DNA of 64,000 bases from an uncultured virus (IMG/VR IMGVR_UViG_3300047157_000140) (IMGVR_UViG_3300047157_000140); one strand, 5' to 3'. Positions 18,590 to 58,828 are shown, counted from the stretch's first letter. Notes: generated from the letters alone by a model not told the origin. Program-made: numbers and translations.

Positions 18590-18614
18590 AATATAATATT
18601 ATAAAATTAAAAAA

Positions 18615-21046
18615 TTATCTTGGATCAAACGACCTTAATCCAAATCCACCACCTAATATATCATTACCTGCAGACTCAAAGTTTTTAGGTGGTTTTTTGT
18701 TATTTCTTTGATCTATTAGCTCACTTTGTTGTGATGCTTGTATTTTTGTTCTTTCGTCTTTACGATCTTCTTTGTATTTATCTTTATTTTAATCAGACTT
18801 TAAGTCCATTTTTTAAGCTCATGATTTATTTGAAACTCGTGATTCATTAACTCTTTTTTAAGTAAAGCTTCTTTTCATTTTCTAGTTTCATTTAAATCAG
18901 CTTTACCTTTTCTAACTGCATCTTTTGACTAGTGAATAGCTTGTTGTTTTTGTACTTCAGCTTGAGCAGCAACTTGTTGAGCTTGTGCATTAGCTTGTGC
19001 TTGAGCTTGTATATTTTGTTGTTGCATCTGCTTGATCTCTTTCTTGCTTTTTTCTTTCTTCGTAATTTTAAGCATTTGATTAGCTAGCTTAATATTTTTA
19101 ATATTCTCTAATATCAATAGCATCTTCTAAATCATACTTTAAACTGTTGATAAAGCTATTTGTATATTGTTTTCAAGCATTTGCTTTTCTTCTTCATCAG
19201 GTGCTAGCTCTATAAATATACCAAAGTCATACAAGTGTAATTGATTCATTTCTTCTAAAGTAGCAACATTATGATTACCTATTTTTTGTATAAAAGCATC
19301 TCTTAGTGGAGAGTATTCTAAAACATCAGATATTCTTAAAGACTTATTACCTTCAGCTACTTGCGATGTTAAATATAAACCAGACTTTGCATATATGTCT
19401 TGTTGCTGTATTACTATTCGCAGCTGCAAGTTTTTGTATACCAACTAAAGCATGTTTATCTGGTGTGCTAGCATCTCTAGCTTCGTTTAACCCGGGTAAC
19501 ATCTCTTATCATTTGTAAATAATAATTATATGTTTATTAAGACTTTGCATTTTTTGCCCACCAGAACCACTTTGTATTTCTTGAATAGGTACTTTACCTG
19601 GGTTCATATCACCTTCTTGAGTCATTGATCTACCAATAACACTACCAGTTTGGAAGAACATATTTAATGCTTCTTGTGGATTATAATTAGTTCCATTACC
19701 TAAATCTATTTCAGCTAAACCATCAGCATCTAAATAAACACCATCTGGTGTCATTCTAGCCATAACCTGTTGCAACTTTAAATGTGTTAACTGAATCATG
19801 TCAGCAAACGTAGTTATTCTACTAACTAAGTGACTCAATTCTACCTTTATACATTCTTGGAGCAACAATAGCATAATTCATTTTAACTTTAGTATAATCA
19901 CTTTTAGGTCTCATCATGTTTTGTGCTAGGCTCCATTTAAGAAGTTTATTAGTACCTAACTATTAAAGCTCCTTCATATAAAACTCTAAAGATCTATTCA
20001 TTTTACCATACTGTTGTTCTAATAGCTCAACATTACTGGATCAAATTCATCATCACGTACTATTATTTTAGTTGCACCAGTTGAAGTTTCTTTTACTTTA
20101 TAAACCTCATTCATGTAGGTTTTGTAATTAAAGTACAACACTTGAACTGTGTTTTTATCTAAATTGTTTGTATCATTCTGTGATTTAAGTAAACCGCTAG
20201 ATGTAAAACTTGACCTAGATAACTCTTAATGTCTTCTTGCGTAAGTTCAGGAAATTGCTTTTTAACTCGTTTATAGGTATTGTTTTAACTTCACCAACAT
20301 AATATAGATCGTCAAAAAAGGATCTTCAGTATAAGACCATATTAAGTTAGCTGGGTCTACATAATCTATTTTAATACCTTCGGTTTTAGTAAAAGTGTTT
20401 TTTACAGCACCAATACCTAACACAGTAAGATCATAGTAAAATCTTTTTCTTGTTTTTCATAATTGTTACCTTCTAGCAAACGTTAATAGCTTGCTCTTCG
20501 GCTAACTCAGAAGCTTGTTTGTAAGACAACTGCATGTGTAATTGTAATTCATCTTCTGAATCTGGTAACTTCTTAGGATCATTTTCTTGTAATACTCAAT
20601 ACCAAAAGCTTCTTGAGCAAAGTTAGCTAATTCTTTAGTTTCCATATCTCTCAATATAGACTCCATGTATTCTGTTCTTTTACTAACCAAAAGGATCTTG
20701 AGAGTAAGCTTTTATATCATAACTTCTTTCAGATATACCATTAACAACTATATCTACAAACTTAGGTATAATAGGTACTGGTTTCCAGTCTAAATTAAGA
20801 TAAGACAAATCACCATTTATAGATAATTCGTCTTTATATTTTTGTATTGATTGTTCTCCTCTAGCGTATAATCTTAGTTTATGAAATTCTGTTTGATTAT
20901 TGTAAAATCTATTTGTACCTGAATCTCTACTTAAACCATTCACTTTCTATAGCTTTAGCAACTTTCAAGCCATATTCTTGGCTACCATTTTCTCGGTCGC
21001 TAACTACTTGACTAGGAAAAAAACTTTTTAGAACTTGATCAGCCAT
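18615..21046 (-). CDS. Portal protein (frameshifted in this sequence)
   Basis: Fragments 'LNLDWKPVPIIPKFVDIVVNG', 'NPQEALNMFFQTGSVIGRS' and a Gln-rich C-terminus; ~2.4 kb between TerL and scaffold. Confidence 0.8.
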
Positions 21047-21047
21047 A

Positions 21048-23257
21048 TTATTGTTTTATTAATTTTGAGTGCATGCCTTTATTTTTATATTTAGCTATAC
21101 TTATGTTTAAATTTTGTTTTTTCTGTTATTGGCATAAGGTGTATATAAATGTTTGTTACAAGCCATTATAGCTAAACCAGAACTAATAGTAGCATCAAAC
21201 TTAGTTCTTTATTTATATCAAATTTAGCCCAATCATTTAACGTTCTATTAAAATACATGTTACCAGTTGTATCCATCTTGTTTTATACCTACATATTTTG
21301 TATGTACATTTCAATAGCAGCAGCGTGAGCTTGCTTAATATCTTCACTTGTATTTGGTATACCACCTATTTCTTTTTCTGTACAGATAGTTTATTCCAAA
21401 CTTTATCAGGTCTATTCATACTAAAACCTCTATAACCTCTTCGTTTTAAATAATATAATAATCTTGGTTTATTGTTTTCTGCTAATATTGGCATACCATA
21501 AAAAACTAAAGCCATTAACACATCTTCAAAAAATATTTCAGCAGTTTGTGGTCTAGCTATATATTCTAAAAAAAATTGACTAGGTGGACAGTCTTCCATA
21601 GACTAAACTTACTTAAGCCATGCAAAGATCCTTTGGATCCTTTACCATCAACTGTTCCAGATATATCATAACTATCACATCCAAAAGCACCCATGTGCTC
21701 ATTACCTGGATATTTACTCCGTTTTTTGTATAACGTTGTTTTGTAATTCTTGACTTGGTATCCAACTAACTTTAAATCTACCTTTTGGATCTGGGTAAAA
21801 AATAACCTTAGTATCTTTAATACCGTTATCCCATTGAAAATTTCCTTGTACTCATTATAGATATTTGCATTTCTTCGTTATAATCTATTTGTTCGTATAT
21901 TTTAACTAAATTAAATATACTATTTTTGCTTCGTCTCTAAAAGCGTGTTCTTCTGTACGTGGAAACTGTCTATAAAACTCATTTAATCCATCTTGATCGT
22001 TTTTAAACCATCAGCTTCATTTTGCCAATGCTCTATAACACCTGTGTCTAATACATCTCCCCACGGATCTAATCTTTCTTGCTTTGGCGTGTTAAAAACA
22101 GGTAATCCATAAGAATCAATGAATCCTTCGTAATTCCATTCCATAGGAATGAACAAAGCTATATAGAGTCCTGACTTGTTTGACCATTGCTGTTTCTTTT
22201 AGTAACATCAGAGTCTGTAATATAATTTTTTAAAATTATCACCACCTTTATCTAAAGCGTTTGATGTTGAACCCATCATACATTTACCAATAATTCTACT
22301 ACCTAATCGTAGTGTTGTTTTTGTAACCCTCCAGTTGTTTAATATATTGTCTGGCCTTTCCCATTTACCACTTTCATCGTGACTAATAGTTTTAATTTTT
22401 CACCATCATAACTATTATCACCAGTATTTTTCCAATCAATAGTTGTATCTAAACCTGTTAATTGTTCTATTTTTTCGTTACTAGTTAATTTTTCTTCTAG
22501 TTAACTTAGTAGCTGGTACTCTATAAGCAAGTTCTGTTTTAGGGTCGATCCATACCATCTTGTATTGGTTTAAAAAAGAAAGGGTAATTAACCGATATTG
22601 GTACAACTTTGTCGGTAAACATTTTTTTAGCATCAGCACCTGTTTTTGACAATATACCAAATCTTGCATCGTTAGATATTGTAGCCATGTTTACTGTTTC
22701 TCCAGAAGCCATAAATGAAAAACCAGATCTTCTATTTTTAAATAACACATACCGTAACACCTTTATCAGCTTTACAGGCTTCCCAAAATATAAAAAATAA
22801 TCTATTTGCTTCTCTAAATCTGGTTTACCAACATCAATCTTACTCCACTGTAAGTACATGTAGTGTGTTCCAGTTATGTAGTTTGATTCACCTTGGTTTT
22901 TAAACCAAAAACCCTTCTTCTCTTCTTTTAAACTCTTCCTCTATGTAATCTGCATATTTTTTTAAAATCATTAGGGTATTCTCTCCAATCAAATATAGTT
23001 TTTATTCTATTTAATTCTTTTGGGTATTCTGTTACCTCCCATTTATTCATGCTTAAACTTATGATATTTTTAGGTTCTTTAGGTAAAGCTATTTTTAAAT
23101 TTTGTATTTCATAACATCACCAATTTGACCAGTTTTAGATATAACAACAATATCATGTTCTTTATTATACCCGTATTTCCATTTTTTAGACTTGTTAAGT
23201 CTTTTTAAAGTATTTATTTATATAATCATTTATATTTTATAAAGTTTGCTCGTACAT
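21048..23257 (-). CDS. terL: Terminase large subunit (frameshifted)
   Basis: Walker A-like KNRRSGFSFM, Walker B-like HDESGKWE, nuclease motif GCDSYDISG and 'ILAENNK'. Confidence 0.85.
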
Positions 23258-23535
23258 TATTTAGATCTTCTTTCAGCAAAACCACCAAAAGCAACTTTTT
23301 CTACTTCTTCTTTTAGGTTTATTTTTAATATATTCTTCTTCTTCTTGTATTCTAGTAAGTATTTCAAAAGCATCAAATATAGCTAGCTTTTTTGTAGCAG
23401 CTGCGTTTTTTAATCTATCAGCTGCTTATATCATCATCTGAATCAACTATAGGTTCTTTAGCTACTTTAATTAATTCTTCAACAGCTTTGTGCCCAGCTT
23501 GGATTATATTCTTTCTTCGTTTCCTTGATATTCAT
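23257..23535 (-). CDS. Putative terminase small subunit (frameshifted)
   Basis: ~90-aa helical ORF (AGHKAVEELIKVAKE...DRLKNAAATKK) overlapping the TerL start. Confidence 0.5.
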
Positions 23536-24071
23536 ATTTAATTGTTAAATGTTTTAGTTCTAACTCGATAAACCTTTCATTGTTTATAATACAAACTCAT
23601 ATTCACTGTTTGGTGTAAAACCAACTAAGCTCAACCTCTTTTAAGGTAAACTTTTGTTTGTATACTTTATAACACCCATTAATGGTTGTTCTTATTAGTA
23701 TCAAACATGTCATTACGATTCAATTGGTTTAACAAAAGCAATAACCATCTAAAGGTTGCCATTTATTGTTCTTTTGATAAGCATATATTTGATCAATAAA
23801 AACAAAGTACAAATCATCCTTATATAGCTTTTACTGTCTTTTTCTTTACCTTTCATGTCGTGTACCTTCTAAAAACATTATGATGCACTATTATACCTTA
23901 TCACCTATACTTTATATTGTTTTAAAATTATAGGCGTTGTTTTACTATAGCTTCCTATTAACGTATTGATGTTAAATATATTGAGTATTAAGTATAAGTT
24001 TATTACCAATTTTTTTAGTATTATTATATCTTGTTTTTAGGTTTATTATAAAATTAAATAACGCTTTTCAT
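23480..24071 (-). CDS. Hypothetical protein, possibly GroES-like fold (frameshifted)
   Basis: Manual translation gives 'VGDKVIVHHNVFRR' and 'VGFTPNSEYEF'; several indels. Confidence 0.35.
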
Positions 24072-24289
24072 TAATACTCTAAATTATACTCTACAGCTAT
24101 TGCCATATTTTTATTAAAATCTTTCCAAGGAATAACATCCTCGCCTTTTTTTAATAAATATACTAAACTTTATCGTCTCCTTCGATTATATGAAATAGTA
24201 TGCCCTCCGTAAACCTCTTGGCCTACGGAGTAGTGCATAGCTTCATTTTTATAATCTTTACCGATACTAATCTTTCTTATCAGCTTCAT
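24071..24289 (-). CDS. Hypothetical protein (frameshifted)
   Basis: MKLIRKISIGKDYKNEAMHYSVGQEVYGGH...NMAIAVEYNLEY. Confidence 0.5.
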
Positions 24290-24581
24290 CTTCTCAGGTA
24301 TTTCAGTATATAGTTCCATCTTGTAAGTTAACAGATACTTTACCGTATTTTTCTTCAAGATCTTTTTGAATAGTTTGTAAATCCATTGTGCAGCTTTTAT
24401 TGTATTCAATGCCCTATATTTTTTGAACTTCTAAACCACCAACTTGCATTTGAACTTGATTTATATTGCTAACTTTTTCTTGAACTGATTTTAATTCTTC
24501 ATCAGTAATCTTTTTTACATCTTGAGCGATGTCCTCTACTTTTACGTCTTCCATTTTATTTAATTTAATTATTAATAATTA

Positions 24582-24957
24582 TACGTCTGTATAATCTTTC
24601 CATTTGTCTTCAGCTTTCATAGCTGTGTAAGCTTGAATTACAGGGTTTTTAGCTGTAGCGCCTACTCCCATAACAAAACTTCCACTTAACTGAAGCGAAG
24701 TCGTCATTGTACTTACCCACGGTATCTCTATGTGCTTTGTCTTTCCAGATTTTAGCTGTATAATTACCTTGAGTACTTTTTACTACTACGTCTTCATAAA
24801 CAGCTTCCGTCTTTATAGACCCATCAGAGTTGTACACGGCAGCTGTTTTTAATTGATTGTTAGTGTACTCATTTGTTGAGTAACCAACATTTGTAACTTT
24901 TACATAAGCATCACTAAGTGTGATTCCTTTGTAAACGTAAGATCCTTTTAATGCCAT
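24582..24957 (-). CDS. Tail-fibre-associated small protein (frameshifted)
   Basis: MALKGSYVYKGITLSDAYVKV..., downstream of the tail fibre. Confidence 0.5.
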
Positions 24958-25013
24958 TGTTTTAATTTTTAAATTGTTATTATTCTATGTTATATATTAT
25001 TTTCACGCTCCAT

Positions 25014-25451
25014 TTACCCATTGGCTTGAACTATTAGTTTCATTAAAAGATGTTGTTGATAAAGAACCCATACTAAATGGATATTGAGTACTAAAACCAT
25101 AACGCTATTTTCACGTTTTTTCGCGATACCCAATGAATAAGTTGTTCCTGTTGTAAAATTTAAACTTGAATACCCTACTCTTGGATTATTTTGTACGTCG
25201 TGGTCGTAACCATAAAATTCAGACATCGCGTGAGGTGCGCTTAAATCTTGAGGTAGTGGGTATCCAGTAGTATTGTTAAAACTAGGGTTTAGAGGTATAT
25301 CACCGCCGCTTGAGTCGGCAATAGGGGATAGAAACAAACCTTTTAAGCTAAAAGAATTTTCACCATCAGCATTGTTAGCCGTGTAATCATCTTCATTTTT
25401 CTCAGAAAATATTTTTAACAAGCTTAATTCGCCACTTGAAGGAACTGCCAT
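25014..25451 (-). CDS. Tail-fibre-associated protein
   Basis: MAVPSSGELSL...PHAMSEFYGYDHD, a pattern often found after phage tail-fibre genes; 3' end uncertain. Confidence 0.5.
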   Translation of the reverse strand: MAVPSSGELSLLKIFSEKNEDDYTANNADGENSFSLKGLFLSPIADSSGGDIPLNPSFNNTTGYPLPQDLSAPHAMSEFYGYDHDVQNNPRVGYSSLNFTTGTTYSLGIAKKRENSVMVLVLNIHLVWVLYQQHLLMKLIVQANG

Positions 25452-25452
25452 A

Positions 25453-25764
25453 TCACCAAGGAGTTTTAAAAGTTACATTAGTAGGTAGTTTTTGTTCTTG
25501 TATGTCTCTTTCTATTATAGCAACATGAGTGTTATAACAATCGTGAGAATTAACCCATCCTTTCACTGTTGTTTCTAGTATATTCTCTAAAGGTGTAAAG
25601 TTGCTAGGATCTAACTCTACTTTTATATGCCCAATGCTAGCACCAACATAATCACCGTCTTCACCTTTAATCAAAAACTCAACCCCTGTTATAACATTTT
25701 CAAATTCACCTAAACTAGGGGCACCTGTAAGTATATTGATTTTTGTAGTATAAATTATTGCCAT
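25453..25764 (-). CDS. Putative tail fibre assembly protein
   Basis: 103 aa, 'NFTPLENILETTVKGWV...PW', translationally coupled to the fibre gene. Confidence 0.5.
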   Translation of the reverse strand: MAIIYTTKINILTGAPSLGEFENVITGVEFLIKGEDGDYVGASIGHIKVELDPSNFTPLENILETTVKGWVNSHDCYNTHVAIIERDIQEQKLPTNVTFKTPW

Positions 25765-28700
25765 TATTTTATTTGTTTTTTAAGTTCGTCTATTTCAGCT
25801 TTTAATTCTTTTATAGCTTCAAGTAGTATTGGAGCTACACCTTGGTGTCTCATTGACAACATACCATCTTCATTTTCTCTTACAAGTTCTGGTACAACTT
25901 CCTTTACATCTTGTGCTATAAATCCTATATCTTCTTTTATATCTAATATACTATCTGATTTTTTCCAATCAAATGTTACACCTTGTAATTTCATAGCTTT
26001 ATCTAAAGCTGATTCAATAGGTTTTATATTTTCTTTTAATCTTTTATCTGATGGAGATCCATAAGCAACAACATCTCCAGAAACTATAAGAGAAGTAGAG
26101 TTTAATTTCATTCTTGTTACAGCAGCTGTTCTAAATTCCATAGCATCGCTACTATGATCATACTCTATTTTACCAGCAATACTTGCTGTTGAACTTGTAC
26201 CATCTGCAAAACAAATACTACAACTCGAAGTAGCTGCTCCATCGATTGTAATACCCACGTTTCCACCTCCAGCTACAACTAAGTTTTTACCGTGCGCGTT
26301 ATAGGATCCAGGAGAATCAGTTCCTATACCTACTTCTCCAGTCGTTGCTTTAATAGTCATTCTTGTGGCTCCATTAAAAAATGCCATGTCTTTAGGAACA
26401 CCTGATGATTGAGTAGAGCCAACTGTCATTAACGCATTTGTATTAGTAATAAATGCTTTCCCGTTAAGAGTTGTAGAAGTTCCTTTAATTTCAATAGCGC
26501 CCGTGTTTCTAATAGACATTATTTCATTAGCTACTCCAACATTATTTCCATTAACTTCATTGTTAGTTGCAAATATTAAATCTCCACGACCTTGAGTTGT
26601 ATTTCTTTTAAAGAATATTCCTGCTTTTACATAAGTATTATTACTAAGCATACTAAAACCAATACTTGCAGAATCACCATCTGTGTCGTTTTCATTTGCT
26701 AAAAGTAAATTATTTGCATCTCCTGATACATCGCTGGTAACAGTTAATTTTCTACCAGGTGCCATCGTTCCAATACCTACGTTCTGAGTAGCATCTATCA
26801 TCATTGCTGATGCGCTTGTCATATATGAAGCAGATCCACTTCCATCAGGACCAGCTGTCCAAAAATGTATTTCTCCAGTATTCCAGTTAGTATCTGCACC
26901 TTTCCCTGTTTTTTTACCACCAATAGCTCCATATACTGATGAGTAATTACCTGATTCAGACAATGCACTAAAAGTTATTAACGGTGAATGAGTTGAGTTT
27001 GTGCTACTGTGATTATAAAGATTTAAACCTAAAGAATAACCTATTGCTGTTGAGTTACTGTTTCCTGCACTAGATAAAGTTAGAATTGGATCTCTACCAT
27101 CAGTAATCCAACCAGCTCCATTAGTAGTAAGCGTTCTACCATTACTTCCAGAATTTGTATAATTATGATTTCCAGAATCTGTATTACTCATATTGTAGAA
27201 ACTTCCACTTGTAGGATTATTAACATTGAAACCTCCTGCAGTTGTAACAGTTCCTATTCCGACTTTACCAGCATTGTCTATAATTAAATCTTTTACTATA
27301 GAACCTTGATTACTATTACTTTGTGTTCTAACAAGCTGCAAGTCTCCGTGGTTAGATAAAATACCTCTATTGTAACTAGTACCTTGCCTACTCCATACCA
27401 TACCACCACCACCAGAATCAGCTGCGTCAAAAGTTAAATACTTACTCCAGCTTTCACCACCGTATCTTTCGTCAACAGCAACATTTGAAATTGTTGTTGT
27501 ACCATTGAAATAAGCGTTGGTTTCAATTGTTGATATATTTGTTGATATTCTAAAATTCTTACAATGTAAAGTTTGTCCATTACCAGTTACTAATCCACCT
27601 GAGGCGGTTGATGATCTCATCCATAATTCAATTTGATCACCTGGTCTTATTTCGCTAATATCTACATCAAACTGTCTAAGCGCATGTACAGATGCACTAA
27701 CACCACTCGCTAATCCATTTGGAGATGCACTTGAGAAGTGACCATGTTTTAATATATTACTAGGTGTAGACATAGCTGTATTTGTGCCATTGTTTCTCGC
27801 GACAGCCCAACCCCAATAATAAGTACCACTAGATATAAAACCTTCCCATTTAACACTTATAGATCCGGCTTTAGAAACTACAATCCTAGCCATTCTTTTG
27901 TAGTTAGCATCACTATCAGTTATAACCTCATCGTGTTCATGGGCAGCTATTATTTTATCACCAGCATCGTAAGCAACTGCTCGACCCTCTGTTATAACAC
28001 CAGAATCGTTTACTTCAAATGTTGGTGATCCACCTTGAGCATCAGAAATCCATAAAGCGTGATCATTACCACCATCTATTCTTAAACCATAAGTAGTTGC
28101 ATGACCATTTCCATCATTATGCTTTCTAATATACATACCCCAGTCACTGGAGTCATTCATTATTTTTATTCCAGCATCATTACTATTTGCATCACTACCA
28201 GTATAATTTATTAATATACTATTTGTTAAAGTACCAGTTATACCTCCAGTTATTTCAACACCACCACTTGTAGTTTCAAACTTTTTAGTACCATTGTGAT
28301 AAAGATTAATTGCTCCACCACTTTGTGCATCTAACATAGAAGCATCACTTGGATTTCTAACTAATAAAGCACCTGTTTTTAGTACTAAACTACCTGCGCC
28401 TGTTTCGTCTATAAAACTATTACTTCCATCATGATATAGTTGTAAATCTTTACCATTACCTAAGGCTATTCTTGATTTATCTTTCCATATGGTATACATT
28501 TCTGTTGTATTAGTGCCATCATGCACTGCGCTACCACCATCTAAATAGAAATAATCAGCTGAGGTTGCGTTATTTTCACCGTTATCAGCTTGGAATATTA
28601 AATTACCATCTTGCTTTTCTTGTTGAATATAAAATGATCCTTCTTTGCTTTTTATCGTACTGTGACTTCCGGTATGATATAATTGTAAATCATCACCTGA

Positions 28701-39177: not shown

Positions 39178-39618
39178 CTATCTTTCTTTATCTTTTATCA
39201 TATCATCTATAGATTTATTGTAAACCTTATCAGTGTATGATTTGTTTTTAAAAAATTTACTTCTTTCTGATGTAGGTAAATCCTCTTCAGCTAACATTAT
39301 TCTGTACATTCTAGTTATTAACTGACTGCACTTAAAAGAAGTTTTATATATAGTATATTTGATTGTAGTTCTATTTCTATGACGCCAGGGTTCTATCCAA
39401 CCATCTCTTCTTAGCCTTTCCCACCTGTTTTTATCCCAAGAGTATGTATACACTCCTTGTATAAAATCATTACGTGTAAATCGCGATTTGCAATCTAAAT
39501 ATATAAGTAATTCTAAATCTGCATCTTTTAGGCTATAAGTTTTACAGGCCCATTTTCTAATGAGCCTATAATACTTGAATAAATTTATTTCTCTTAAATT
39601 AGTTGGAGTTAGTCTCAT
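39178..39618 (-). CDS. Hypothetical protein, possibly winged-helix DNA-binding
   Basis: Likely start MRLTPTNL overlapping the groES stop; 'DADLELLIYL...RWERLRRDGWI'. Confidence 0.5.
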   Translation of the reverse strand: MRLTPTNLREINLFKYYRLIRKWACKTYSLKDADLELLIYLDCKSRFTRNDFIQGVYTYSWDKNRWERLRRDGWIEPWRHRNRTTIKYTIYKTSFKCSQLITRMYRIMLAEEDLPTSERSKFFKNKSYTDKVYNKSIDDMIKDKER

Positions 39619-39872
39619 TCTACTAATACAACATCTTGCATCTGTATAACATGATACAGTTTTTCTTTCCATCTTATACTGTGACCAGCATGTCTATCAA
39701 AGAATATAACATCTTTTTCCTTAAGTCCTTCAACTAATGTACCTGTAGACACTATATTAGCTTTAATATACCTGTTTTCAGTATCAACATTGTCTGTTAT
39801 TAAAAGTCCACCTACTTTCTTCGGCTCTACTTTATGTTTTTCAACTACTATATAATAATTAACTGCTTGCAT
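39615..39872 (-). CDS. groS: Co-chaperonin GroES-like
   Basis: 85 aa with 'KKVGGLLI' mobile loop and 'VIQMQDVV'; adjacent to GroEL. Confidence 0.8.
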   Translation of the reverse strand: MQAVNYYIVVEKHKVEPKKVGGLLITDNVDTENRYIKANIVSTGTLVEGLKEKDVIFFDRHAGHSIRWKEKLYHVIQMQDVVLVE

Positions 39873-41051
39873 TGCTTATTCTTACGTTACTTATTACACA
39901 ATCTGCTGATATTATAGTTAAAACTACCGATATAGCGTTTTTTAGAGCTGATTTTGTCACTAAAACTGGATCTATTATACCAGTTTGTATCATATTCTTA
40001 ATACAACCGCAAGTTACATCAATTCCTTCGCCATCTTTTAGCTTTTTATGCGATATATCTTCCAAACCTGCGTTACTTAATATAGTATAGAATGGAGATT
40101 CAACCGCTTTTGCCAATATTTGTTCACCTTCACCTTCAAATGGTGTGTTTTTTACAGCATTTAACAAAGCCACGCCACCACCCGGGACTATTCCTTCTTT
40201 CAAGGCGGCCTTAACAGCGTAAATTGAATCTTCTATTCTATCTTTTTTCTCTTTAAGCTCTATTTTAGAGTCAGCACCAACTTTTACAACAGCTACAGAG
40301 CCGTTTAACATAGCTAATCTTTGTTCTAGTCTACGTTTTAAGTACTGATTAGTCTCTTTTTTAATACTTTTCTTTACATCTTTAACTCTTTGCGATATTT
40401 TAGCGTCCATACCTTCTATAGTAAGAACAGTTACCTTATCTTCAGTTACAGCCGTTGAAGCTTCACCTAAAACATCAGGTTGTATTAGATCTAAATCATC
40501 TCCTAGCTCTTCATTTATAACTGTTGCTCCAGTTAATAAAGCTAAATCCTCTATTGTATCAGCTTTTGTTGGGCCAAATCCAGGGGGATCGATGACATCT
40601 TTTAGCATGCTACCTTTACGTCTATAGCTGTATCTGTTAAGTATGTATTTACCTTTTCTAAGTGCTGAATTTATACCTTGCTTAATAAATCTAGTAGAAA
40701 GCTCTGCATATTGTTCTTTTTGTACTTCTTTAATCAGTGCTTCAGCAAGGACGGTAGCTGTAGTAGTACCGTCACCTGCTTCTTTCACTGTGTTTTTAGC
40801 GGCTTCTTTAATAAGAGTAGCTCCGAGGTTTTCAACCGGGTCATATAAGACAACAGATTCTGCTACTGTTACACCGTCTTTTGTAATGACCGGGTTGCCT
40901 CTAGCATCTTCGTATATTACACACTTTCCAGATGCTCCTAGAGTAGACTTCACTGCTTTCGCTAATTTGTCTACACCCGCAATTATTTTACTTTTAGCTT
41001 CATCACCAAAGTTTAACTCTTTGACAACTCGCTGGGTTGGTTATATTCCAT
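39859..41051 (-). CDS. groL: Chaperonin GroEL-like with an internal deletion and indels
   Basis: VKSTLG, ITKDGVTVA, AGDGTTTATVLA, PGFG, EGIVPGGG and GIIDP motifs; only ~397 codons. Confidence 0.85.
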
Positions 41052-43954: not shown

Positions 43955-43987
43955 TTACAAACGTAATACGAATGAGTTTGGATAATA
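43955..43987 (+). promoter_or_regulatory. Early promoter-like motif copy 4
   Basis: TTACAAA cgt AATACG aatgagtt TGGATAATA. Confidence 0.8.
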
Positions 43988-44013
43988 TAAATGTAACAAA
44001 TAAACAAATAACT

Positions 44014-44202
44014 ATGTATTGTAAATGTGGAGATAAAGTACACCCTGTAAGATTAAGCTTAGGTTATAAAACATGTATGCCTTGTAGCACAACACAAACA
44101 TACTCTTACGTACCTATTATCGAGCATAAAACAGGTAATACAATACAAATTGTAAGTCAAGAAGTAAGTGCATCAGTGCACAGAGCTTGGCGCAGAAAAT
44201 AG
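44014..44202 (+). CDS. Small zinc-finger protein (DksA/TraR C4-like)
   Basis: MYCKCGDKVHPVRLSLGYKTCMPCS. Confidence 0.6.
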   Translation: MYCKCGDKVHPVRLSLGYKTCMPCSTTQTYSYVPIIEHKTGNTIQIVSQEVSASVHRAWRRK

Positions 44203-44293
44203 CTAGACGAGTAGCTTAATTAGACAAGTTTGAAGCTAACCATGAAAAATAGGTTATATGATGTATTCTTGTACATAAGTGAATAGCTAGCAA

Positions 44294-44371
44294 TCGAGGC
44301 GGCGGCATACTGGTCAAAAGCGCGGATAAAGCATAATACTAGTTAGTACCGGTCCGCGACTGGTGCCTCGA
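44294..44371 (+). ncRNA. Unidentified structured RNA, array unit B
   Basis: GC-rich 78 nt closed by TCGAGGC/GCCTCGA; internal CGCGGA/TCCGCG. Confidence 0.5.
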
Positions 44372-44374
44372 AAA

Positions 44375-44482
44375 GGGAGTGATAAGGTAAGACTATTAAA
44401 CTACTTGCACCTAATATTAACAATGTTAAAGGTACAAAGCAGATGTTAAATAGTAACGGCGGTTCGATTCCGCCCACTTCCA
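44375..44482 (+). ncRNA. tmRNA-like mini-RNA: alanyl tRNA-like domain without an mRNA-like domain
   Basis: Acceptor GGGAGTG/CACTTCC with G3.U70 and A73; stemless D-loop ATAAGGTAAGA(C); helix ACTATT/AATAGT; AAC linker; T-arm GGCGG-TTCGATT-CCGCC. Confidence 0.75.
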
Positions 44483-44487
44483 CTAAC

Positions 44488-44575
44488 AGAGAGATGGCAG
44501 ATATGCAGAGATATACTTGTCAACAAAACAACGGCGGGTTTACGTAAGCGAAGTACTTCGTTGGCACATCTCTCT
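44488..44575 (+). ncRNA. Unidentified structured RNA, array unit D
   Basis: 88 nt closed by the 9-bp stem AGAGAGATG/CATCTCTCT. Confidence 0.5.
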
Positions 44576-44583
44576 TAATATAA

Positions 44584-44662
44584 TACCGGCTTAACAGTAA
44601 ATCAACGTCTCGGCTTCCTTGAGGTATCAGTTGTACAAAGCCAGTTGTAGTGACAGCCGGTA
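44584..44662 (+). ncRNA. Unidentified structured RNA, array unit E
   Basis: 79 nt closed by the 8-bp stem TACCGGCT/AGCCGGTA; internal GGCTT/AAGCC. Confidence 0.5.
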
Positions 44663-44668
44663 ACTTAT

Positions 44669-44742
44669 TGCGCGGTAGAGCAGATGGTTAGCTCGCGAGT
44701 CTCATAAACTCGAGGTCGGAGGTTCGAATCCTCCCTGCGCAC
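44669..44742 (+). tRNA. tRNA-Met (CAT), initiator-like body
   Basis: Cloverleaf: TGCGCGG/CTGCGCA, D-stem GAGC/GCTC, anticodon arm CGAGT-CTCATAA-ACTCG, T-arm GGAGG-TTCGAAT-CCTCC. Confidence 0.9.
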
Positions 44743-44749
44743 CTAACAT

Positions 44750-44782
44750 TTACAAACATAATACGTATGGTTGTGGATAATA
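44750..44782 (+). promoter_or_regulatory. Early promoter-like motif copy 5
   Basis: TTACAAA cat AATACG tatggttg TGGATAATA. Confidence 0.8.
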
Positions 44783-44808
44783 AATATGTAATCAAATAAA
44801 TAATAAAT

Positions 44809-51800: not shown

Positions 51801-53471
51801 ATGCAGACAACAGAGATCAATGGATTCTTGATTGATGGTTCAATCAATATGGCCTAGAAGAGAAGACACAGGGTATATGTCCCCTGTGTTCTCACGATAG
51901 GAAACCTAAAACCAAAAAGCTTAAATGTGCTAGCTATGATTGGGAACGTGGTCTCGGTACCTGTCACAACTGTGACACTAGTTTTCAACTTCATACTTAC
52001 CAACGTAAAGGTGCTAGCGAAAGAGTCTATGTAAGACCTGATGCAATAGAGCAGTTTGACGATGTAAGTACGAATGTTGAGACATGGTTTGGTACAAGAG
52101 GTATATCAAAGAAAACACTGCAAGACTTACAGGTTACTGAAGGTCAAGAGTGGATGCCTCAAACTAGTAAGATGGAAAATACCATACAGTTTAATTACTT
52201 TATGGGTGATCAACTTATTAATGTTAAATATAGAGACGGTAGAAAAAACTTCAAGTTATACAAAGGTGCTGAAAAAGTATTTTACAATATTAATAGTATT
52301 GTAGGTTATGATGAATGTATAATTGTTGAAGGTGAAATGGATGTGTTAGCTTTGCACGAAGCTGGTATTAAAAATGTAATATCAGTACCTAACGGTGCTA
52401 CACTAAATTCTAACAACCTAGATTATCTTAGATAATTGTATTGATTATTTTGAAGATAAAGACTAAGGTTATACTTGCAGTTGATGCTGATGAAGCCTGG
52501 TCAAGCTTTAAAGCAAGAGTTTATACGTAGACTCGGTGCTGAGGTTTGTTACACTTGTAGATTTTGATGACTGTAAAGATTCAAATGACTATTTAATTGA
52601 ACATGGTGCTGATGCCTTACGTTCTGCTATACACGCTGCAAAGCAAGTACCGCTAGAAGGTGTTAGTACATTATACGATATACGAAGATGAACTTAAAGA
52701 CTTTGTTAAAAATGGATTTAAACCTGGGTTTCAAGTCGGGCTTAAAAACTTTGATGAAATATTTTCGACATACACTGGTCAGTTTATTACGGTTACTGGC
52801 ATCCCTAGTAGTGGTAAGTCTGACTTTGTTGATCAAATGTGTGTTGGATATAATACAAACTATGGATGGAAGACTGCATTTGCGTCTCCGGAAAATGCTC
52901 CAACATATCTTCACGCACATAAGTTAATGCGTAAGGTTTGGCAAGGTATGCCTTCACCTAGCAGATATAGATGGTGAACAATGGAATAAGTTGCAGACCA
53001 CGTAAACGATAATTTCTTTTTCATTGACATGGAAAGATATACTCTTGACCATGTACTACGTAAAGGCGCTGAGCTTGTTAAACGTAAAGGTATTAAATGT
53101 TTAGTCATTGATCCTTTTAATAAGGTTAGAGATGTTAATTGTAAGACTGAAGATGTTAATAGGTATACAATGGAATATCTAACTAAGATAGAAGTATTTG
53201 CTAAAAAGTATGATGTATTAGTATTTATAGTTGCGCACCCTACAAAGATGTACAAGGCTCTGATGGTAAAATAGAAGAACCTACAATGTATAATATTAAA
53301 GGTGGTGGTGAATGGTACGATGCTAGTTATCATGGTTTATTAGTACATAGAGATTATGATGCTAAAACTGTTAAAGCTAAAGTATTAAAAGTTAAGTTTC
53401 AAAACCTCGGTGAAAACGGTGCTGAAGCTTTTTTAAATGGGAACACAAATCAGGTTGCTTTATACCTTTGA
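51801..53471 (+). CDS. Primase-helicase, T7 gp4/Twinkle-like (frameshifted)
   Basis: Zn finger CPLC..CHNC, TOPRIM IVEGEMD, Walker A GIPSSGKS, Walker B LVIDP and VAHP. Confidence 0.88.
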
Positions 53472-56862: not shown

Positions 56863-57108
56863 CAAGAAGAAAACTACTTAAGCTTTTAGCTTACACAAAT
56901 AAGTTAACATCATATCAAAAGTTTCGCATCACGTGTAGGTTACATGGGTGCGGGTTTTTTGATAGCAGGGCAATGGACATTAGATCCTAGGCTTTTCATG
57001 ATAGGTTTTATATGTGTTATAGTACAAACATCATCAAGAAAACAATGGAACTTAGTTGCATTGAATATTAATGGGCTAATAGCTTGGATAACTCATTTTA
57101 TAAAATAT
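56856..57108 (+). CDS. Small membrane protein between nrdB and nrdA (indels)
   Basis: Hydrophobic 'GAGFLIAGQW...FMIGFICVIVQ...WNLVALNINGLIAW'; fused to nrdA in the ORF track, probably by error. Confidence 0.5.
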
Positions 57109-58828
57109 ATGTGGAACAATGAATGGAAAAAAGGTGAAGACTACCCAAAGTGGGGAGACACCGAAGTATATAAAAAAACAATATCTGGAGGATACTTATA
57201 TCAAGGAGAAACACCTAAGGAGGCTTATAAAAGAGTCGCGAAAACGGTTGCTCGTAGATTATATAAGCCAGAAATGGCAGAAACTTTCTTTGAGTATATT
57301 TGGAATGGTTGGCTATGCTTGGCTAGTCCGGTACTTAGTAATACAGGTACTGATCGCGGTTTACCTATTAGCTGTTTTGGTATCGATGTGGCTGATAGTA
57401 TACAAGACATTGGACAAAAAAACTTAGAGATGATGCTACTCGCTAAGCACGGCGGTGGAGTTGGTATCGGTATAAATCAAATAAGACCCGCCGGCGCTAA
57501 AATAACAGGAAATGGAACAAGTGATGGAGTTGTGCCGTTTTGTAAAATATACGATTCAACTATACTTGCCACTAATCAAGGATCTGTCCGAAGAGGAGCT
57601 GCATCAGTTAATATCAATATTGAGCATGCCGATTTCGAAGAGTGGCTTGAAATTAGAGAACCTAAAGGAGACGTCAATCGTCAATCGCTCAACTTACACC
57701 AGTGCGCTGTGGTCGGCGATAAGTTCATGCGAAGACTTGAAGCAGGAGATAAACAAGCTAGAAAAAGATGGAGTAAACTTCTTCAAAAGCGTAAAGCAAC
57801 TGGAGAACCTTATATCCTATTTAAAGGGAAACACAAACAAAAATAACCCAAAGCATACAAAGATAACGGTCTCAAAGTTCATATGACAAACATATGTTCA
57901 GAAATAACGTTACACACTGATGAAAATCATAGTTTTGTATGTTGTTTATCATCATTAAATTTAGCTAAATATGAAGAATGGAAAGGTACAAACCTTATTT
58001 ATGACAGTATATGGTTCCTTGATGGAGTCATGGAAGAGTTTATACAACGAGCTAAAGGCTTACGAGGCTTTGAAAACGCGGTTAGGTCAGCTACGAAAGG
58101 AAGAGCGCTTGGCCTTGGGAGTTTTGGGCTGGCACACGTACTTACAAGAAAAAGGTATCTCGTTCGAAGGTTTACTTGCTCAGTTTGAAACTAGGAAAAT
58201 TTTTAGTCAAATTAAAATTGAAAGTGAAAGAGCTAGTATGGCACTTGCAGAAACTTACGGAGAACCTTTATGGTGTTCTGGAACTGGTATGCGTAATACT
58301 CATTTACGTGCTGTTGCTCCTACTGTTTCTAATAGTAAGCTTAGTGGAAATGTTTCGCCGGGTATAGAACCTTGGGCTGCAAATGTTTTTACAGAACAAC
58401 AGCTAAAGGTACTTTTATACGTAAAAATCCTACTTAGTTAAACTATTAAGAAAACTTAAAATAAATAACAATGAAACGTGGGATAAAATACTTGCCGATG
58501 GTGGTAGTGTACAAGATCTTGCTGAGCTTGATGATGTTGTTATGGCACACGACGTCACCCGCAAAGGAGGTATTTAAAACTTTTAAGGAGATTAATCAAC
58601 TAGAATTAGTTAATCAAGCTGGACTGAGACAGCAGTATGTAGATCAGTCAGTTAGTTTGAACTTAGCTTTTCCTAGTGTAGCTACGCCTAAATGGCTTAA
58701 CAAAGTTCATTTTGAAGCTTGGAAAAAAGGTGTTAAAACTTTATATTATACAAGGACTGAATCAGTGCTTACGTGGAGATATTGCTACTCAAGCTATGAA
58801 TGAAGATTGTTTAGCTTGTGATGGATAA
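57109..58828 (+). CDS. nrdA: Class I ribonucleotide reductase alpha subunit, no ATP cone (frameshifted)
   Basis: PISCF, GGGVG, RRGAA, TNICSEI, CCLSS, APT, DQSVSLN, KTLYY and C-terminal CLAC. Confidence 0.92.

What the first reader, a model, noticed from the sequence alone, without database searches (positions are those of the whole stretch)
44375..44482. Phage-encoded 108-nt mini-tmRNA: tRNA-like domain with no mRNA-like domain
Seen: acceptor stem GGGAGTG/CACTTCC with G3.U70 and discriminator A73, an 11-nt D-loop with GG but no D-stem ending in GAC, a helix ACTATT/AATAGT extending into one irregular ~50-nt hairpin with no anticodon arm, a 3-nt AAC linker and a canonical T-arm. Established: G3.U70/A73 is AlaRS identity, and this layout is the SmpB-binding tRNA-like domain of tmRNA. 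Normal tmRNA has ~250 more nt of pseudoknots and tag ORF, and tagless forms are known mainly from protist mitochondria. Inference: an early phage RNA that is alanylated and binds SmpB, acting as an SmpB decoy that shuts down trans-translation, a tag-free ribosome-rescue RNA, or a decoy against host tRNA/tmRNA nucleases.
Basis: partly seen in the sequence, partly recalled or inferred. Interest (0 to 1): 0.9.

Follow-up and report, generated by a model that had tools for sequence, protein, structure and literature searches.

The report
Phage tag-less mini-tmRNA with swappable hairpin
This marine phage carries a real 108-base gene for only the alanine-accepting, tRNA-like end of the bacterial ribosome-rescue RNA (tmRNA), a little-studied type already known from one mycobacteriophage, but here its middle hairpin is swapped like a cassette between otherwise near-identical phages.

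Summary
Window 44375-44482 (+) folds into a 7-bp acceptor stem with G3:U70 and A73, a stemless GG D-loop, one long hairpin in place of the anticodon arm, and a canonical T-arm.

It belongs to a large family in uncultured marine phages whose capsid-like protein is closest to phages of Flavobacteriaceae. I recovered 124 unique elements. G3:U70 is kept in 89 of 90 distinct aligned sequences, while the neighbouring pair 4:69 and the T-stem covary.

A 78-nt relative passes Rfam's tmRNA threshold (57.6 bits against 47). The window's copy does not (15 bits).

The kind is already in print. Mycobacteriophage DS6A has a "TLD only" tmRNA, reported to inhibit E. coli tmRNA. More distant cultured relatives (Cellulophaga phi38:1, Calle_1, Maribacter Panino) carry full tmRNAs.

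Two things appear new. One is the size of this family. The other is a hypervariable central hairpin: 52 classes, replaced exactly at the base of the helix between near-identical flanks. At least 9 of 22 classes tested share cores with free-standing structured modules elsewhere in the same non-coding RNA island.

Most likely it is an alanylated SmpB ligand that blocks or short-circuits host trans-translation, and its hairpin tolerates insertions. Charging, SmpB binding and expression are untested.

Earlier notes of this scan report similar mini-tmRNAs in other phages.

The parts
44375..44381 (+). Acceptor stem, 5' strand GGGAGTG (G3 of the G3:U70 pair at 44377)
   Evidence: All 7 pairs are kept in the family; pair 3:70 is GU in 89 of 90 distinct sequences and pair 4:69 covaries.
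44382..44391 (+). D-loop analogue ATAAGGTAAG: stemless, with a conserved GG
   Evidence: In alignment A2 (27 sequences) the second G of the GG is invariant and the first is conserved in at least 90% of sequences. It resembles the GGTTTTGAC-type D-loops of Bacteroidia and Cellulophaga-phage tmRNAs.
44392..44454 (+). Central hairpin in the position of tmRNA helix P2, closed by ACTATT/AATAGT; this is the hypervariable 'slot'
   Evidence: for the fold; on its own z = -1.24. The closing pairs show all four Watson-Crick types across the family. There are 52 sequence classes in 124 unique elements. Its 26-nt core is free-standing downstream of the element in L002 and L020.
44455..44457 (+). AAC linker before the T-arm
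   Evidence: AAC is the commonest linker, with GAA, GAC and CAC in other subgroups.
44458..44474 (+). T-arm GGCGG TTCGATT CCGCC
   Evidence: aligned to the tmRNA T-arm with high posterior. Three of five stem pairs covary and 100% of cells are paired.
44475..44482 (+). Acceptor 3' strand CACTTCC (U70 at 44477) and discriminator A73 (44482)
   Evidence: A73 is part of the search patterns and of the regular expression, so its invariance in those sets follows from how they were collected. Where A73 was not required, in the scan, every family element listed ends in A.
44483..44487 (+). 3' trailer CTAAC; CCA is not encoded
   Evidence: A CTAA trailer follows 137 of 186 instances. It also follows the window's tRNA-Met and the full-length tmRNAs of Cellulophaga phages phi38:1 and Calle_1.
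44295..44370 (+). Upstream structured module 'U', closed by CGAGGC/GCCTCG, 4 nt before the element
   Evidence: -26.6 kcal/mol, z = -1.87. The block at window 44317-44374, which covers most of this module, is near-invariant in six phages whose hairpins all differ.
44488..44575 (+). Downstream structured module 'A', closed by AGAGAGATG/CATCTCTCT
   Evidence: z = -3.68; 0 of 200 shuffles fold as well. Present in 5 of the 6 aligned phages and precisely absent in L028.
44585..44661 (+). Downstream structured module 'B': a conserved core of about 65 nt with a covarying closing stem
   Evidence: 13 sequences, and 10 of 20 predicted pairs show compensatory changes. Absent in L010 and L017. The same core sits inside the mini-tmRNA hairpin in L034.
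44669..44743 (+). tRNA-Met (CAT), last unit of the same ORF-free island (44203-44808)
   Evidence: 63.1 bits.

Best explanation
The element is a tag-less tmRNA: a phage gene that keeps only the tRNA-like domain of transfer-messenger RNA. It probably descends from a full-length phage tmRNA such as those still carried by more distant relatives.

Proposed mechanism (inferred):
1. It is transcribed with tRNA-Met and other structured RNAs from an ORF-free island among the DNA-metabolism genes.
2. Host tRNA-processing enzymes trim it and add CCA.
3. Host alanyl-tRNA synthetase charges it through G3:U70 and A73.
4. Host SmpB binds it.
5. Because it has no resume codon or tag frame, it competes with host tmRNA for SmpB and for stalled ribosomes. 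Trans-translation is then either blocked or ends without the degradation tag.

The hairpin in the place of helix P2 is a permissive slot. Modules from the island's pool of structured RNAs are exchanged there by recombination across the conserved flanks.

Shown here: the structure, the homology to tmRNA ends, selection on the alanine identity pair, and cassette-like exchange of the hairpin. Not shown: transcription, processing, charging, SmpB binding and any effect on the host.
For: Layout and fold.

Homology to tmRNA:
- A 78-nt family member (L032) matches Rfam tmRNA end to end at 57.6 bits, against a gathering score of 47.
- The published DS6A TLD-only element scores 43.2 bits and is found by my family model at 35.2 bits, E = 5.5e-7.
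- The 5' end resembles real tmRNA 5' ends that share the same 25-nt 3' end: GGGAGTGATAAGGTAAG against GGGAGTGATAGGCATCGAC. Of the 11 tmRNA-sized genomic hits, the 6 I submitted scored 98-137 bits as tmRNA.

Selection on alanine identity:
- G3:U70 is kept in 89 of 90 distinct sequences while 4:69 is CG in 60, AU in 15 and GC in 15, and three T-stem pairs covary.
- G3:U70 is kept in 124 of 127 unique sequences.

Descent from a phage tmRNA: Cellulophaga phages phi38:1 and Calle_1 carry 362-nt tmRNAs (87.6 and 86.6 bits) and Maribacter phage Panino a permuted tmRNA (62.2 bits). The two Cellulophaga tmRNAs are followed by the same CTAA trailer as the element, as is Panino's acceptor piece.

CCA is also not encoded in most sampled Bacteroidia tmRNA genes.

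Precedent for function: a similar TLD-only molecule strongly inhibits tmRNA, perhaps by titrating SmpB (PMC4131195 and PMC11915505, passages read; both cite Mao et al. 2009, which is not held).

No SmpB domain was found in 80 window ORFs, so the partner would be the host's.

Hairpin as a slot: the flanks are near-identical and the hairpin is wholly replaced at its base in six phages. There are 52 classes, 12 of them on more than one acceptor type.
Against: - The window's own copy reaches only 15 bits on Rfam tmRNA, and only its 3' part aligns with confidence. ARAGORN does not call it.
- In the window's subgroup the D-loop has drifted from the tmRNA consensus: there is no GAC.
- Expression, processing, charging and SmpB binding have no data. 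The one read-laying run returned nothing.
- A simple SmpB decoy does not need a hypervariable 25-130-nt insert, and PMC4131195 says the inhibitory molecule worked 'whether or not chargeable'. Strong selection on G3:U70 is therefore not explained by titration alone.
- The element is dispensable or lost in some relatives. L005 has a chimera of its 5' half with the 3' half of tRNA-Met. L076 has degenerate copies. The cultured Flavobacterium elemoE phage and the Manatee Spring phage have neither form.
- tRNA-sized secondary hits of 31-40 bits to RF00023 in Bacteroidia genomes were not inspected and may be tRNA-Ala. If so, scores in that range are not specific to tmRNA.
Confidence: 0.6

Rival explanations
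1. The tRNA-like part is mainly a processing and stability handle. It would work like a t-element or a natural 'tRNA scaffold': it recruits RNase P, 3' trimming enzymes and the CCA-adding enzyme, so that the structured RNA modules of the island, including the one held in its hairpin, are cut out and stabilised. The functional cargo is the variable module, and trans-translation is not the target.
For: - The element sits in a 606-nt ORF-free island of stem-closed units, and three of them (the element, module B and tRNA-Met) are each followed by a TAAC motif.
- Modules A and B are present or absent as precise cassettes.
- At least 9 of 22 hairpin classes tested have near-identical cores standing outside the slot in other phages.
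- Module B has its own covarying stem and sits inside the hairpin in L034.
- Class 7 hairpins are class 1 hairpins with a roughly 60-nt module nested in the apical loop.
Against: - A cutting signal needs only an acceptor stem and T-arm. It does not explain why the G3:U70 wobble and A73 stay fixed while neighbouring pairs change.
- It does not explain why the stemless GG D-loop of tmRNA is kept.
- The shortest members carry almost no cargo: a 47-nt element in L134 and 25-29-nt hairpins.
- The subgroup with acceptor GGGGGTG has one conserved hairpin, not a variable one.
- Folding energy of the window's hairpin and of module B is unremarkable (z = -1.24 and -0.48).
Confidence: 0.2
2. It is a decoy substrate for a host defence nuclease that cuts tmRNA or tRNAs. 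The variable hairpins would track different host nucleases.
For: - Hairpin turnover between phages with 98% identical ligase is what a host-phage conflict would produce.
- Phage tRNA clusters are a known answer to anticodon nucleases (established knowledge, recalled).
Against: - The hairpins do not look like anticodon arms; by eye I saw no recurring 7-nt loop or shared motif in the listing.
- No defence or anti-defence gene was identified beside the island.
- No hairpin or module matched anything convincingly in 401 sampled Bacteroidia genomes. Only the T-arm and 3' end matched, and the other hits were 20-35 nt at E of 0.002-0.01.
- The conserved part, not the variable part, is what mimics tmRNA.
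Confidence: 0.08
3. It is a non-functional remnant: a decaying internal-deletion derivative of a phage tmRNA, or a copy of the host ssrA end used as an attachment site.
For: - Degenerate and chimeric copies exist (L005; L076).
- Phages often integrate at ssrA and carry its 3' end (PMC9004378 and PMC11590407, passages read).
Against: - All 15 modelled pairs are kept in 97.9% of cells across 90 distinct sequences, with compensatory changes.
- The 5' strand and D-loop, which an attachment site does not need, are conserved.
- No integrase domain was found among 80 ORFs of the window.
- The family persists across phages whose ligases are only 60% identical.
Confidence: 0.03

Closest known systems
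'TLD only' (CDS-less) tmRNA of Mycobacterium phage DS6A (JN698994.1, 28478-28560)
   Same: - Phage-encoded.
- 83 nt against 108 nt here.
- 7-bp acceptor stem with G3:U70 and A73, stemless GG D-loop, one hairpin in place of P2 and everything beyond it, and a T-arm.
- CCA is not encoded; ACTA follows in both.
- My family model finds it at 35.2 bits.
- Reported to inhibit tmRNA in E. coli (PMC11915505 and PMC4131195, passages read).
   Different: - A different host phylum (Actinomycetota, against a probable Bacteroidota host) and no sequence similarity beyond the shared tmRNA consensus.
- In the passages I read, DS6A is described as a single sequence.
- Here there are 124 unique members, three acceptor types, tandem copies, and a hairpin that is exchanged as a cassette.
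Full-length phage tmRNAs of related Flavobacteriaceae phages (Cellulophaga phi38:1 and Calle_1, one-piece, 362 nt; Maribacter Panino, permuted)
   Same: - A related group of phages: the window's capsid-like protein is 35-44% identical to theirs.
- The same kind of ends: GGGGGCGACTGGTTTTGAC ... TTCGATTCC ... CCTCCA, followed by CTAA.
- Panino's lies in a tRNA cluster near a tRNA-Met.
   Different: They keep pseudoknots and a tag frame; ARAGORN reads a tag in Panino. They score 62-88 bits, above threshold. The window's element has lost all of that.
CDS-less organellar tmRNAs (jakobid/oomycete mitochondria; about 65-bp plastid genes of Mallomonadaceae)
   Same: A tRNA-like domain without a tag frame, retained together with an SmpB that is encoded elsewhere (PMC4131195 and PMC11915505, passages read).
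   Different: Those are the organelle's only tmRNA and are presumed to rescue ribosomes. The phage RNA would act beside, and probably against, a complete host tmRNA. Rfam's mitochondrial model gave no listed match here.
tRNA-like processing signals and engineered tRNA scaffolds (plant mitochondrial t-elements; stable small RNAs in the phage T4 tRNA cluster; recombinant 'tRNA scaffold' RNAs): recalled, not tested
   Same: A tRNA-like acceptor and T-arm module joined to, or enclosing, another structured RNA within a multi-RNA transcript.
   Different: None of those is known to keep tmRNA's stemless D-loop together with the alanine identity pair. The resemblance is functional only and is a lead, not a result.

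Membership tests
tmRNA (Rfam RF00023, clan CL00001), tRNA-like domain | 7-bp acceptor stem with G3:U70 and discriminator A73 | tested here: met
   GU at 3:70 in 89 of 90 distinct family sequences.
tmRNA (Rfam RF00023, clan CL00001), tRNA-like domain | T-arm with a GGTTCGAnTCC-type loop, and a stemless D-loop with GG | tested here: met
   No D-stem or anticodon arm is found by ARAGORN or the Rfam tRNA model.
tmRNA (Rfam RF00023, clan CL00001), tRNA-like domain | A helix (P2) leaves the domain where the anticodon stem would be, and it covaries | tested here: met
   Closing pairs show the AU, UA, CG and GC types: 87.7% of cells paired in A2 and 86.4% in A4. A4 was fitted to the model.
tmRNA (Rfam RF00023) | Score at or above Rfam's gathering threshold (47 bits) | tested here: not met
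   The window scores 15 bits. Relative L032 scores 57.6 bits and passes. DS6A scores 43.2 bits and does not.
Canonical tmRNA (functional definition) | An mRNA-like domain with a resume codon, tag reading frame, stop codon and pseudoknots | tested here: not met
   Only 63 nt lie between the D-loop and the linker. Family hairpins go down to 11-29 nt. The 28-nt class 3 hairpin has no stop codon in any frame (direct reading). Real tmRNAs with the same 3' end are 343-406 nt.
TLD-only (CDS-less) tmRNA, as in phage DS6A | tmRNA-type tRNA-like domain closed by a simple hairpin, with no tag frame, encoded by a phage | tested here: met
TLD-only (CDS-less) tmRNA, as in phage DS6A | Alanylation by AlaRS and binding of SmpB; inhibition of trans-translation | not testable with these tools
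   Only indirect evidence: selection on G3:U70 and A73. No SmpB domain among 80 window ORFs.
tRNA (RF00005) | Cloverleaf with a D-arm and an anticodon arm | tested here: not met
   Not called by ARAGORN or by Rfam at gathering score. No tRNA match is listed for 44375-44482 at E up to 10 (lower-scoring matches from the same clan are hidden by that tool).
Phage attachment site copying the 3' end of host ssrA | Only the 3' part of ssrA is present, next to an integrase | tested here: not met
   The 5' strand and D-loop are present and conserved. No integrase or recombinase domain in 80 ORFs.
t-element-like RNA processing signal | Cleavage by RNase P or RNase Z that releases neighbouring RNAs; no aminoacylation needed | not testable with these tools
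   The context fits, but conservation of G3:U70 argues for more than a cutting signal.

The most novel reading that the evidence does not exclude
The tRNA-like domain is a delivery or display handle. Phages of this clade plug members of a fast-exchanging library of small structured RNAs into the P2 slot of an alanylatable, SmpB-binding tmRNA head. The cargo is then stabilised and perhaps carried to stalled ribosomes or to SmpB and RNase R complexes. That would make it a natural modular RNA display system used in phage-host or phage-phage conflict. It would explain three things together: the strict conservation of the alanine identity pair, the 52 hairpin classes, and the presence of the same modules free-standing elsewhere in the island.
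Probability: 0.2. Interest if true: 0.85.

Novelty: new variant of a known kind. Interest (0 to 1): 0.6.

Why it matters
Tag-less tmRNAs in phages rest in print on one sequence, DS6A, and one inhibition experiment.

This report adds a family of more than 120 distinct sequences in abundant marine phages that probably infect Flavobacteriia. It has clear evolutionary neighbours that still carry full tmRNAs, and clear selection on the alanine identity pair. Together these suggest that manipulating host ribosome rescue with a stripped tmRNA is a recurrent phage strategy rather than a curiosity.

The family also offers natural variants for testing what the tRNA-like domain alone does on the ribosome.

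The cassette-like hairpin, and the surrounding island of exchangeable structured RNAs (modules U, A and B), point to an undescribed layer of small phage RNAs. These match no Rfam family at E up to 10 and have no convincing match in 401 sampled Bacteroidia genomes.

Tried and rejected
- **Whole-genome searches:** none is held for this window.
- **Cultured phage DNA:** megablast of 20 kb against cultured phages gave no match. Sensitive blastn of the island hit 72 records, and all 40 rows listed cover only the tRNA-Met part.
- **Expression:** The look-up of sequencing runs listed 24 runs, 16 of them recorded as RNA, holding at most 0.40 of the sampled words. The single read-laying run returned nothing.
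- **Cultured relatives:** the family model found no mini-tmRNA in five of them. The best hit, 29.1 bits, is the acceptor piece of Panino's permuted tmRNA.
- **Tag frame in the hairpin:** rejected, because the hairpins are too short and some have no stop codon.
- **A two-piece tmRNA using modules A or B as the coding piece:** rejected. The domain is closed by its own hairpin. The 17-codon frame in module A is not tag-like (direct reading).
- **Attachment-site reading:** rejected, as there is no integrase.
- **Stop-codon recoding as the reason for the ORF-poor stretch 18.6-25.7 kb:** no longer frames appear under TAG=Q or table 4.
- **Island against 401 Bacteroidia genomes:** only T-arm-sized matches.
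- **Promoter scan:** 2 sites against 3.2 expected, so it is uninformative. The scanner models sigma-70 promoters, and as I recall Bacteroidota promoters differ from that consensus.
- **Earlier notes of this scan:** look-ups by place and by sequence returned nothing.
- **Mao et al. 2009:** not held.

Full report
**What is there**

Window 44375-44482 on the + strand reads as follows:
- GGGAGTG, acceptor 5' strand
- ATAAGGTAAG, a stemless loop with GG
- a 63-nt hairpin closed by ACTATT/AATAGT
- AAC, linker
- GGCGG TTCGATT CCGCC, T-arm
- CACTTCC, acceptor 3' strand, giving G3:U70
- A, discriminator

CTAAC follows, not CCA. The minimum-free-energy fold is exactly this layout: -29.4 kcal/mol, z = -3.29, and 1 of 200 shuffles folds as well. 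The layout survives when the whole 606-nt ORF-free island is folded.

ARAGORN and Rfam at gathering score see only the tRNA-Met at 44669-44743. In permissive mode Rfam's tmRNA model matches at 15 bits (E = 5.5e-4, gathering score 47), and only the T-arm and 3' acceptor strand align with confidence. One correction: its 'GAC' is partly helix.

**The window is a phage**

PHROGs and Pfam find the following:
- virion proteins, a tail fibre, a crAss-type muzzle domain
- GroES/GroEL-like genes
- DNA ligase, Erf and an exonuclease
- a sigma factor, thymidylate synthase and ribonucleotide reductase

Among 80 ORFs there is no SmpB domain and no integrase. No whole genome is held and no cultured phage matches at the DNA level.

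The capsid-like protein hits 85 phage records. One is an uncultured phage from a spring. All the others are phages of Flavobacterium, Cellulophaga or Maribacter, at 22-44% identity. A marine Flavobacteriia host is thus the best guess, and it is an inference.

**A large family, not an artefact**
- The DNA ligase 2 kb downstream brought in 42 related viral loci. A covariance model of the element (R1) gives 33 matches of 51-83 bits in 32 of 43 sources.
- Of the 11 sources without a strong match, 3 do not reach the region (L004, L026, L035). One, L005, holds a chimera of the element's 5' half with the 3' half of tRNA-Met. The other 7 are L019, L021, L039 and L041-L044, whose ligases are 49-74% identical to the window's.
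- Scans of the viral collection with the three types of 3' end gave 42, 90 and 22 stretches.
- From all loci I recovered 127 unique sequences in 186 instances. Two are full-length tmRNAs and one is a tandem pair, which leaves 124 elements of 56-185 nt, mostly 68-125 nt.

**Structure and selection**

On 27 hand-picked members, 98.2% of cells pair, against 80.4% in shuffles (0 of 500 shuffles reach the observed value) and 40-57% when the partners are slid.

On 90 distinct model-aligned sequences the figure is 97.9%, with 0 of 500 shuffles and 35-54% for slid partners. That alignment was fitted to the model, which favours the structure.
- Pair 3:70 is G:U in 89 of 90 sequences.
- The next pair, 4:69, is CG in 60, AU in 15 and GC in 15.
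- Three T-stem pairs covary.
- The pairs closing the hairpin show all four Watson-Crick types.

A wobble pair held fixed in the middle of a helix whose neighbours change freely is the signature expected if alanyl-tRNA synthetase recognition matters (established: G3:U70 is the main alanine identity element). One of the three exceptions, with A3:U70, is the first of two tandem copies in L020; its partner keeps G:U.

**It is a tmRNA head**
- A 78-nt member (L032) matches Rfam tmRNA from the first to the last model position at 57.6 bits, above the gathering score.
- Real tmRNAs served as positive controls and score 77-137 bits.
- The genome scan with the element's 25-nt 3' end found 12 stretches. 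Eleven are 343-406 nt long with 5' ends such as GGGAGTGATAGGCATCGAC, close to the element's GGGAGTGATAAGGTAAG. The twelfth is a 116-nt mini form on a 903-bp contig of a metagenome bin.
- Thirty Bacteroidia tmRNAs begin GGGGCYGACNGGTTTTGAC or similar, end ...GGACGNGGGTTCGANTCC...CTCCA, and mostly lack an encoded CCA. The tally includes one unpublished genome, G095; none of its sequence was used.
- The subgroup with acceptor GGGGGTG keeps this consensus almost intact (GGGGGTGACTTGGTATTGAC), and the window's subgroup is the most derived.

**Relatives with full tmRNAs**
- Cellulophaga phages phi38:1 and Calle_1 carry one-piece 362-nt tmRNAs (87.6 and 86.6 bits).
- Maribacter phage Panino carries a permuted tmRNA in its tRNA cluster (RF04321, 62.2 bits).
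- The two Cellulophaga tmRNAs are followed by the same CTAA trailer as the element, as is Panino's acceptor piece.
- The papers on these phages mention their tmRNAs only in passing (PMC8776804 and PMC11590407, passages read).

It is met only at a distance of 35-44% capsid identity. All close relatives have the short form. The short form is therefore an evolved state and not a deletion artefact.

**Precedent**

Hudson, Lau and Williams list Mycobacterium phage DS6A as 'TLD only'. They note that a similar molecule, chargeable or not, strongly inhibits tmRNA, perhaps by titrating SmpB (PMC4131195, passages read). The 2025 database paper says the DS6A form inhibits endogenous tmRNA when expressed in E. 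coli, and it reports CDS-less plastid forms (PMC11915505, passage read). Both cite Mao et al. 2009, which I could not read.

I located the DS6A element at 28478-28560. It is 83 nt long, scores 43.2 bits, and has the same architecture and an ACTA 3' end. My model finds it at 35.2 bits.

The listings, and the passages I read in six papers, describe no marine or flavobacterial phage family of this kind and no variable insert. I did not open supplements.

Earlier notes of this scan report many phage mini-tmRNAs on other DNA. They agree with this reading but are unchecked notes, not independent evidence.

**The unexpected part: the hairpin**

Six phages were aligned across the island. The 58 nt before the element, the 17 nt at its 5' end and the 31 nt at its 3' end are nearly invariant, and module A is nearly invariant in the five phages that carry it. 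The hairpin between GGTAAG and AAC shares no conserved column.

Clustering the 124 unique elements gives 52 hairpin classes (at least 70% identity, single linkage). Twelve classes occur on more than one acceptor type. The commonest class has 21 unique sequences in 35 loci.

Within classes, changes are compensatory. For example, in the hairpin shared by L018 and L047, CCAT.../...ATGG becomes CCAC.../...GTGG (direct reading).

A BLAST of 22 class representatives shows that at least 9 have near-identical cores of 21-60 nt outside the slot in other phages:
- The window's own core stands alone between the element and tRNA-Met in L002 and L020.
- The L034 hairpin is module B, which in the window lies at 44585-44661.
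- The L030 and L051 hairpins are the commonest class with a roughly 60-nt module nested in the apical loop. That module lies upstream of the element in L010, L012, L015 and L029.

Modules A and B are themselves present or absent as precise cassettes. Module B has a conserved core of about 65 nt and a covarying closing stem: 10 of 20 predicted pairs show compensatory changes.

The island is therefore a mosaic of stem-closed RNA modules, and the P2 loop of the mini-tmRNA is one of the places where they sit. The phage's own Erf and exonuclease pair, acting on the conserved flanks, would suffice to exchange them; that is an inference.

**Mechanism**

I rate the identity as a tag-less tmRNA homologue at about 0.9. 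I rate the full proposed mechanism at 0.6: the RNA is processed, receives CCA, is alanylated and is bound by host SmpB, and so it blocks or short-circuits trans-translation.

Selection on G3:U70 argues that the charged form acts. That means entry into stalled ribosomes and transfer of the nascent chain to alanine without a tag, rather than pure titration of SmpB.

The main rival (0.2) is that the tRNA-like part is chiefly a processing and stability handle for the modules. The two readings are not exclusive, and their combination is the boldest reading the data allow: an SmpB-binding or ribosome-directed display handle for a module library, at about 0.2.

A nuclease decoy (0.08) and a dead remnant or attachment site (0.03) fit the data poorly.

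Nothing here shows transcription. The read-laying run returned nothing, and no cultured phage carries the element.

**Verdict**

The size of the family, its clear descent from full phage tmRNAs, the selection on the alanine pair and the cassette-like hairpin make it a new variant of real interest to people who work on tmRNA and on phage RNAs.

Noticed in passing
window 44585-44661 (module B); also L023, L028, L029, L071, L156, L161, L163, L168, L176, L199, L206, L215: A conserved structured RNA of about 65 nt (core ...GGCTTCCTTGAGGT...TTGTACAAAGCC...) with a closing stem that takes at least five different complementary sequences. It matches no Rfam family at E up to 10. It is usually free-standing near the mini-tmRNA and tRNA-Met, but in L034 it is nested inside the mini-tmRNA hairpin.
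   Followed up: partly
window 44488-44575 (module A) and 44295-44370 (module U): Two more stem-closed units flank the element. Module A folds well above chance (z = -3.68) and is precisely absent in L028. The block at window 44317-44374, which covers most of module U, is near-invariant in six phages. No function or family is known for either.
   Followed up: partly
L003, L010, L011, L014, L015, L023 upstream of the element; inside the hairpin in L030, L051, L055: The motif GGAAGTGTATTACA recurs. In several loci it forms the perfect palindrome AAGTGTA-T-TACACTT, which looks like a protein-binding operator. Its GGAAGTG could also pair with the element's 3' strand. The window has only a diverged version.
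   Followed up: no
L005 7746-7834: A chimera of the 5' half of the mini-tmRNA and the 3' half of tRNA-Met, as if recombination between the two similar T-arms had deleted everything in between. It could be a real loss or an assembly join.
   Followed up: partly
L020 6977-7155; L076 (minus strand): Tandem copies. In L020 two mini-tmRNAs lie 3 nt apart with different acceptor types, and the first has A3:U70. L076 has two degenerate copies.
   Followed up: partly
L134 401-447; L125 342-425: Extreme variants. L134 has a 47-nt element with no hairpin at all: acceptor stem, 15 nt, then the T-arm. In L125 the 5' part looks like a true D-arm followed by a longer stem-loop.
   Followed up: no
window 56944-58803: The large subunit of ribonucleotide reductase is split into three consecutive ORFs (300, 156 and 110 aa) that cover successive parts of the Pfam barrel domain. 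This suggests introns, inteins or inserted elements.
   Followed up: no
window 52154-53274: Toprim (primase) and AAA_25 (helicase-type) domains lie on separate small ORFs of 93 and 81 aa, as if a primase-helicase gene were fragmented.
   Followed up: no
window 18600-25700, minus strand: About 7 kb between large virion genes contain only ORFs of 57-145 aa. Reading TAG as Gln, or using table 4, does not merge them.
   Followed up: partly
window 43972-44202: The 76-aa ORF that ends at the start of the RNA island carries CxC...CxxC cysteine pairs (zinc-ribbon-like by eye). An ORF of similar sequence, also with paired cysteines, lies in the same position upstream of the island in L005, L020 and L076. 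It has no Pfam family.
   Followed up: no
window 39615-40953, minus strand: A phage-encoded GroES-like gene (85 aa) and a truncated GroEL-like gene (364 aa, matching only the C-terminal part of the Cpn60 profile) lie next to each other.
   Followed up: no
G106, G087, G015, G107, G110, G027, G035, G095, G001 (unnamed Bacteroidia genomes): Secondary 77-nt matches to the tmRNA model at 29-40 bits, end to end. They may be tRNA-Ala genes. If so, scores in this range are not specific to tmRNA.
   Followed up: no
L109 523-630 (MW202828.1, spring-water phage): A 108-nt match to the Rfam tRNA model (47.3 bits), far longer than a normal tRNA and not called by ARAGORN. It may be a tRNA with an insert.
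   Followed up: no
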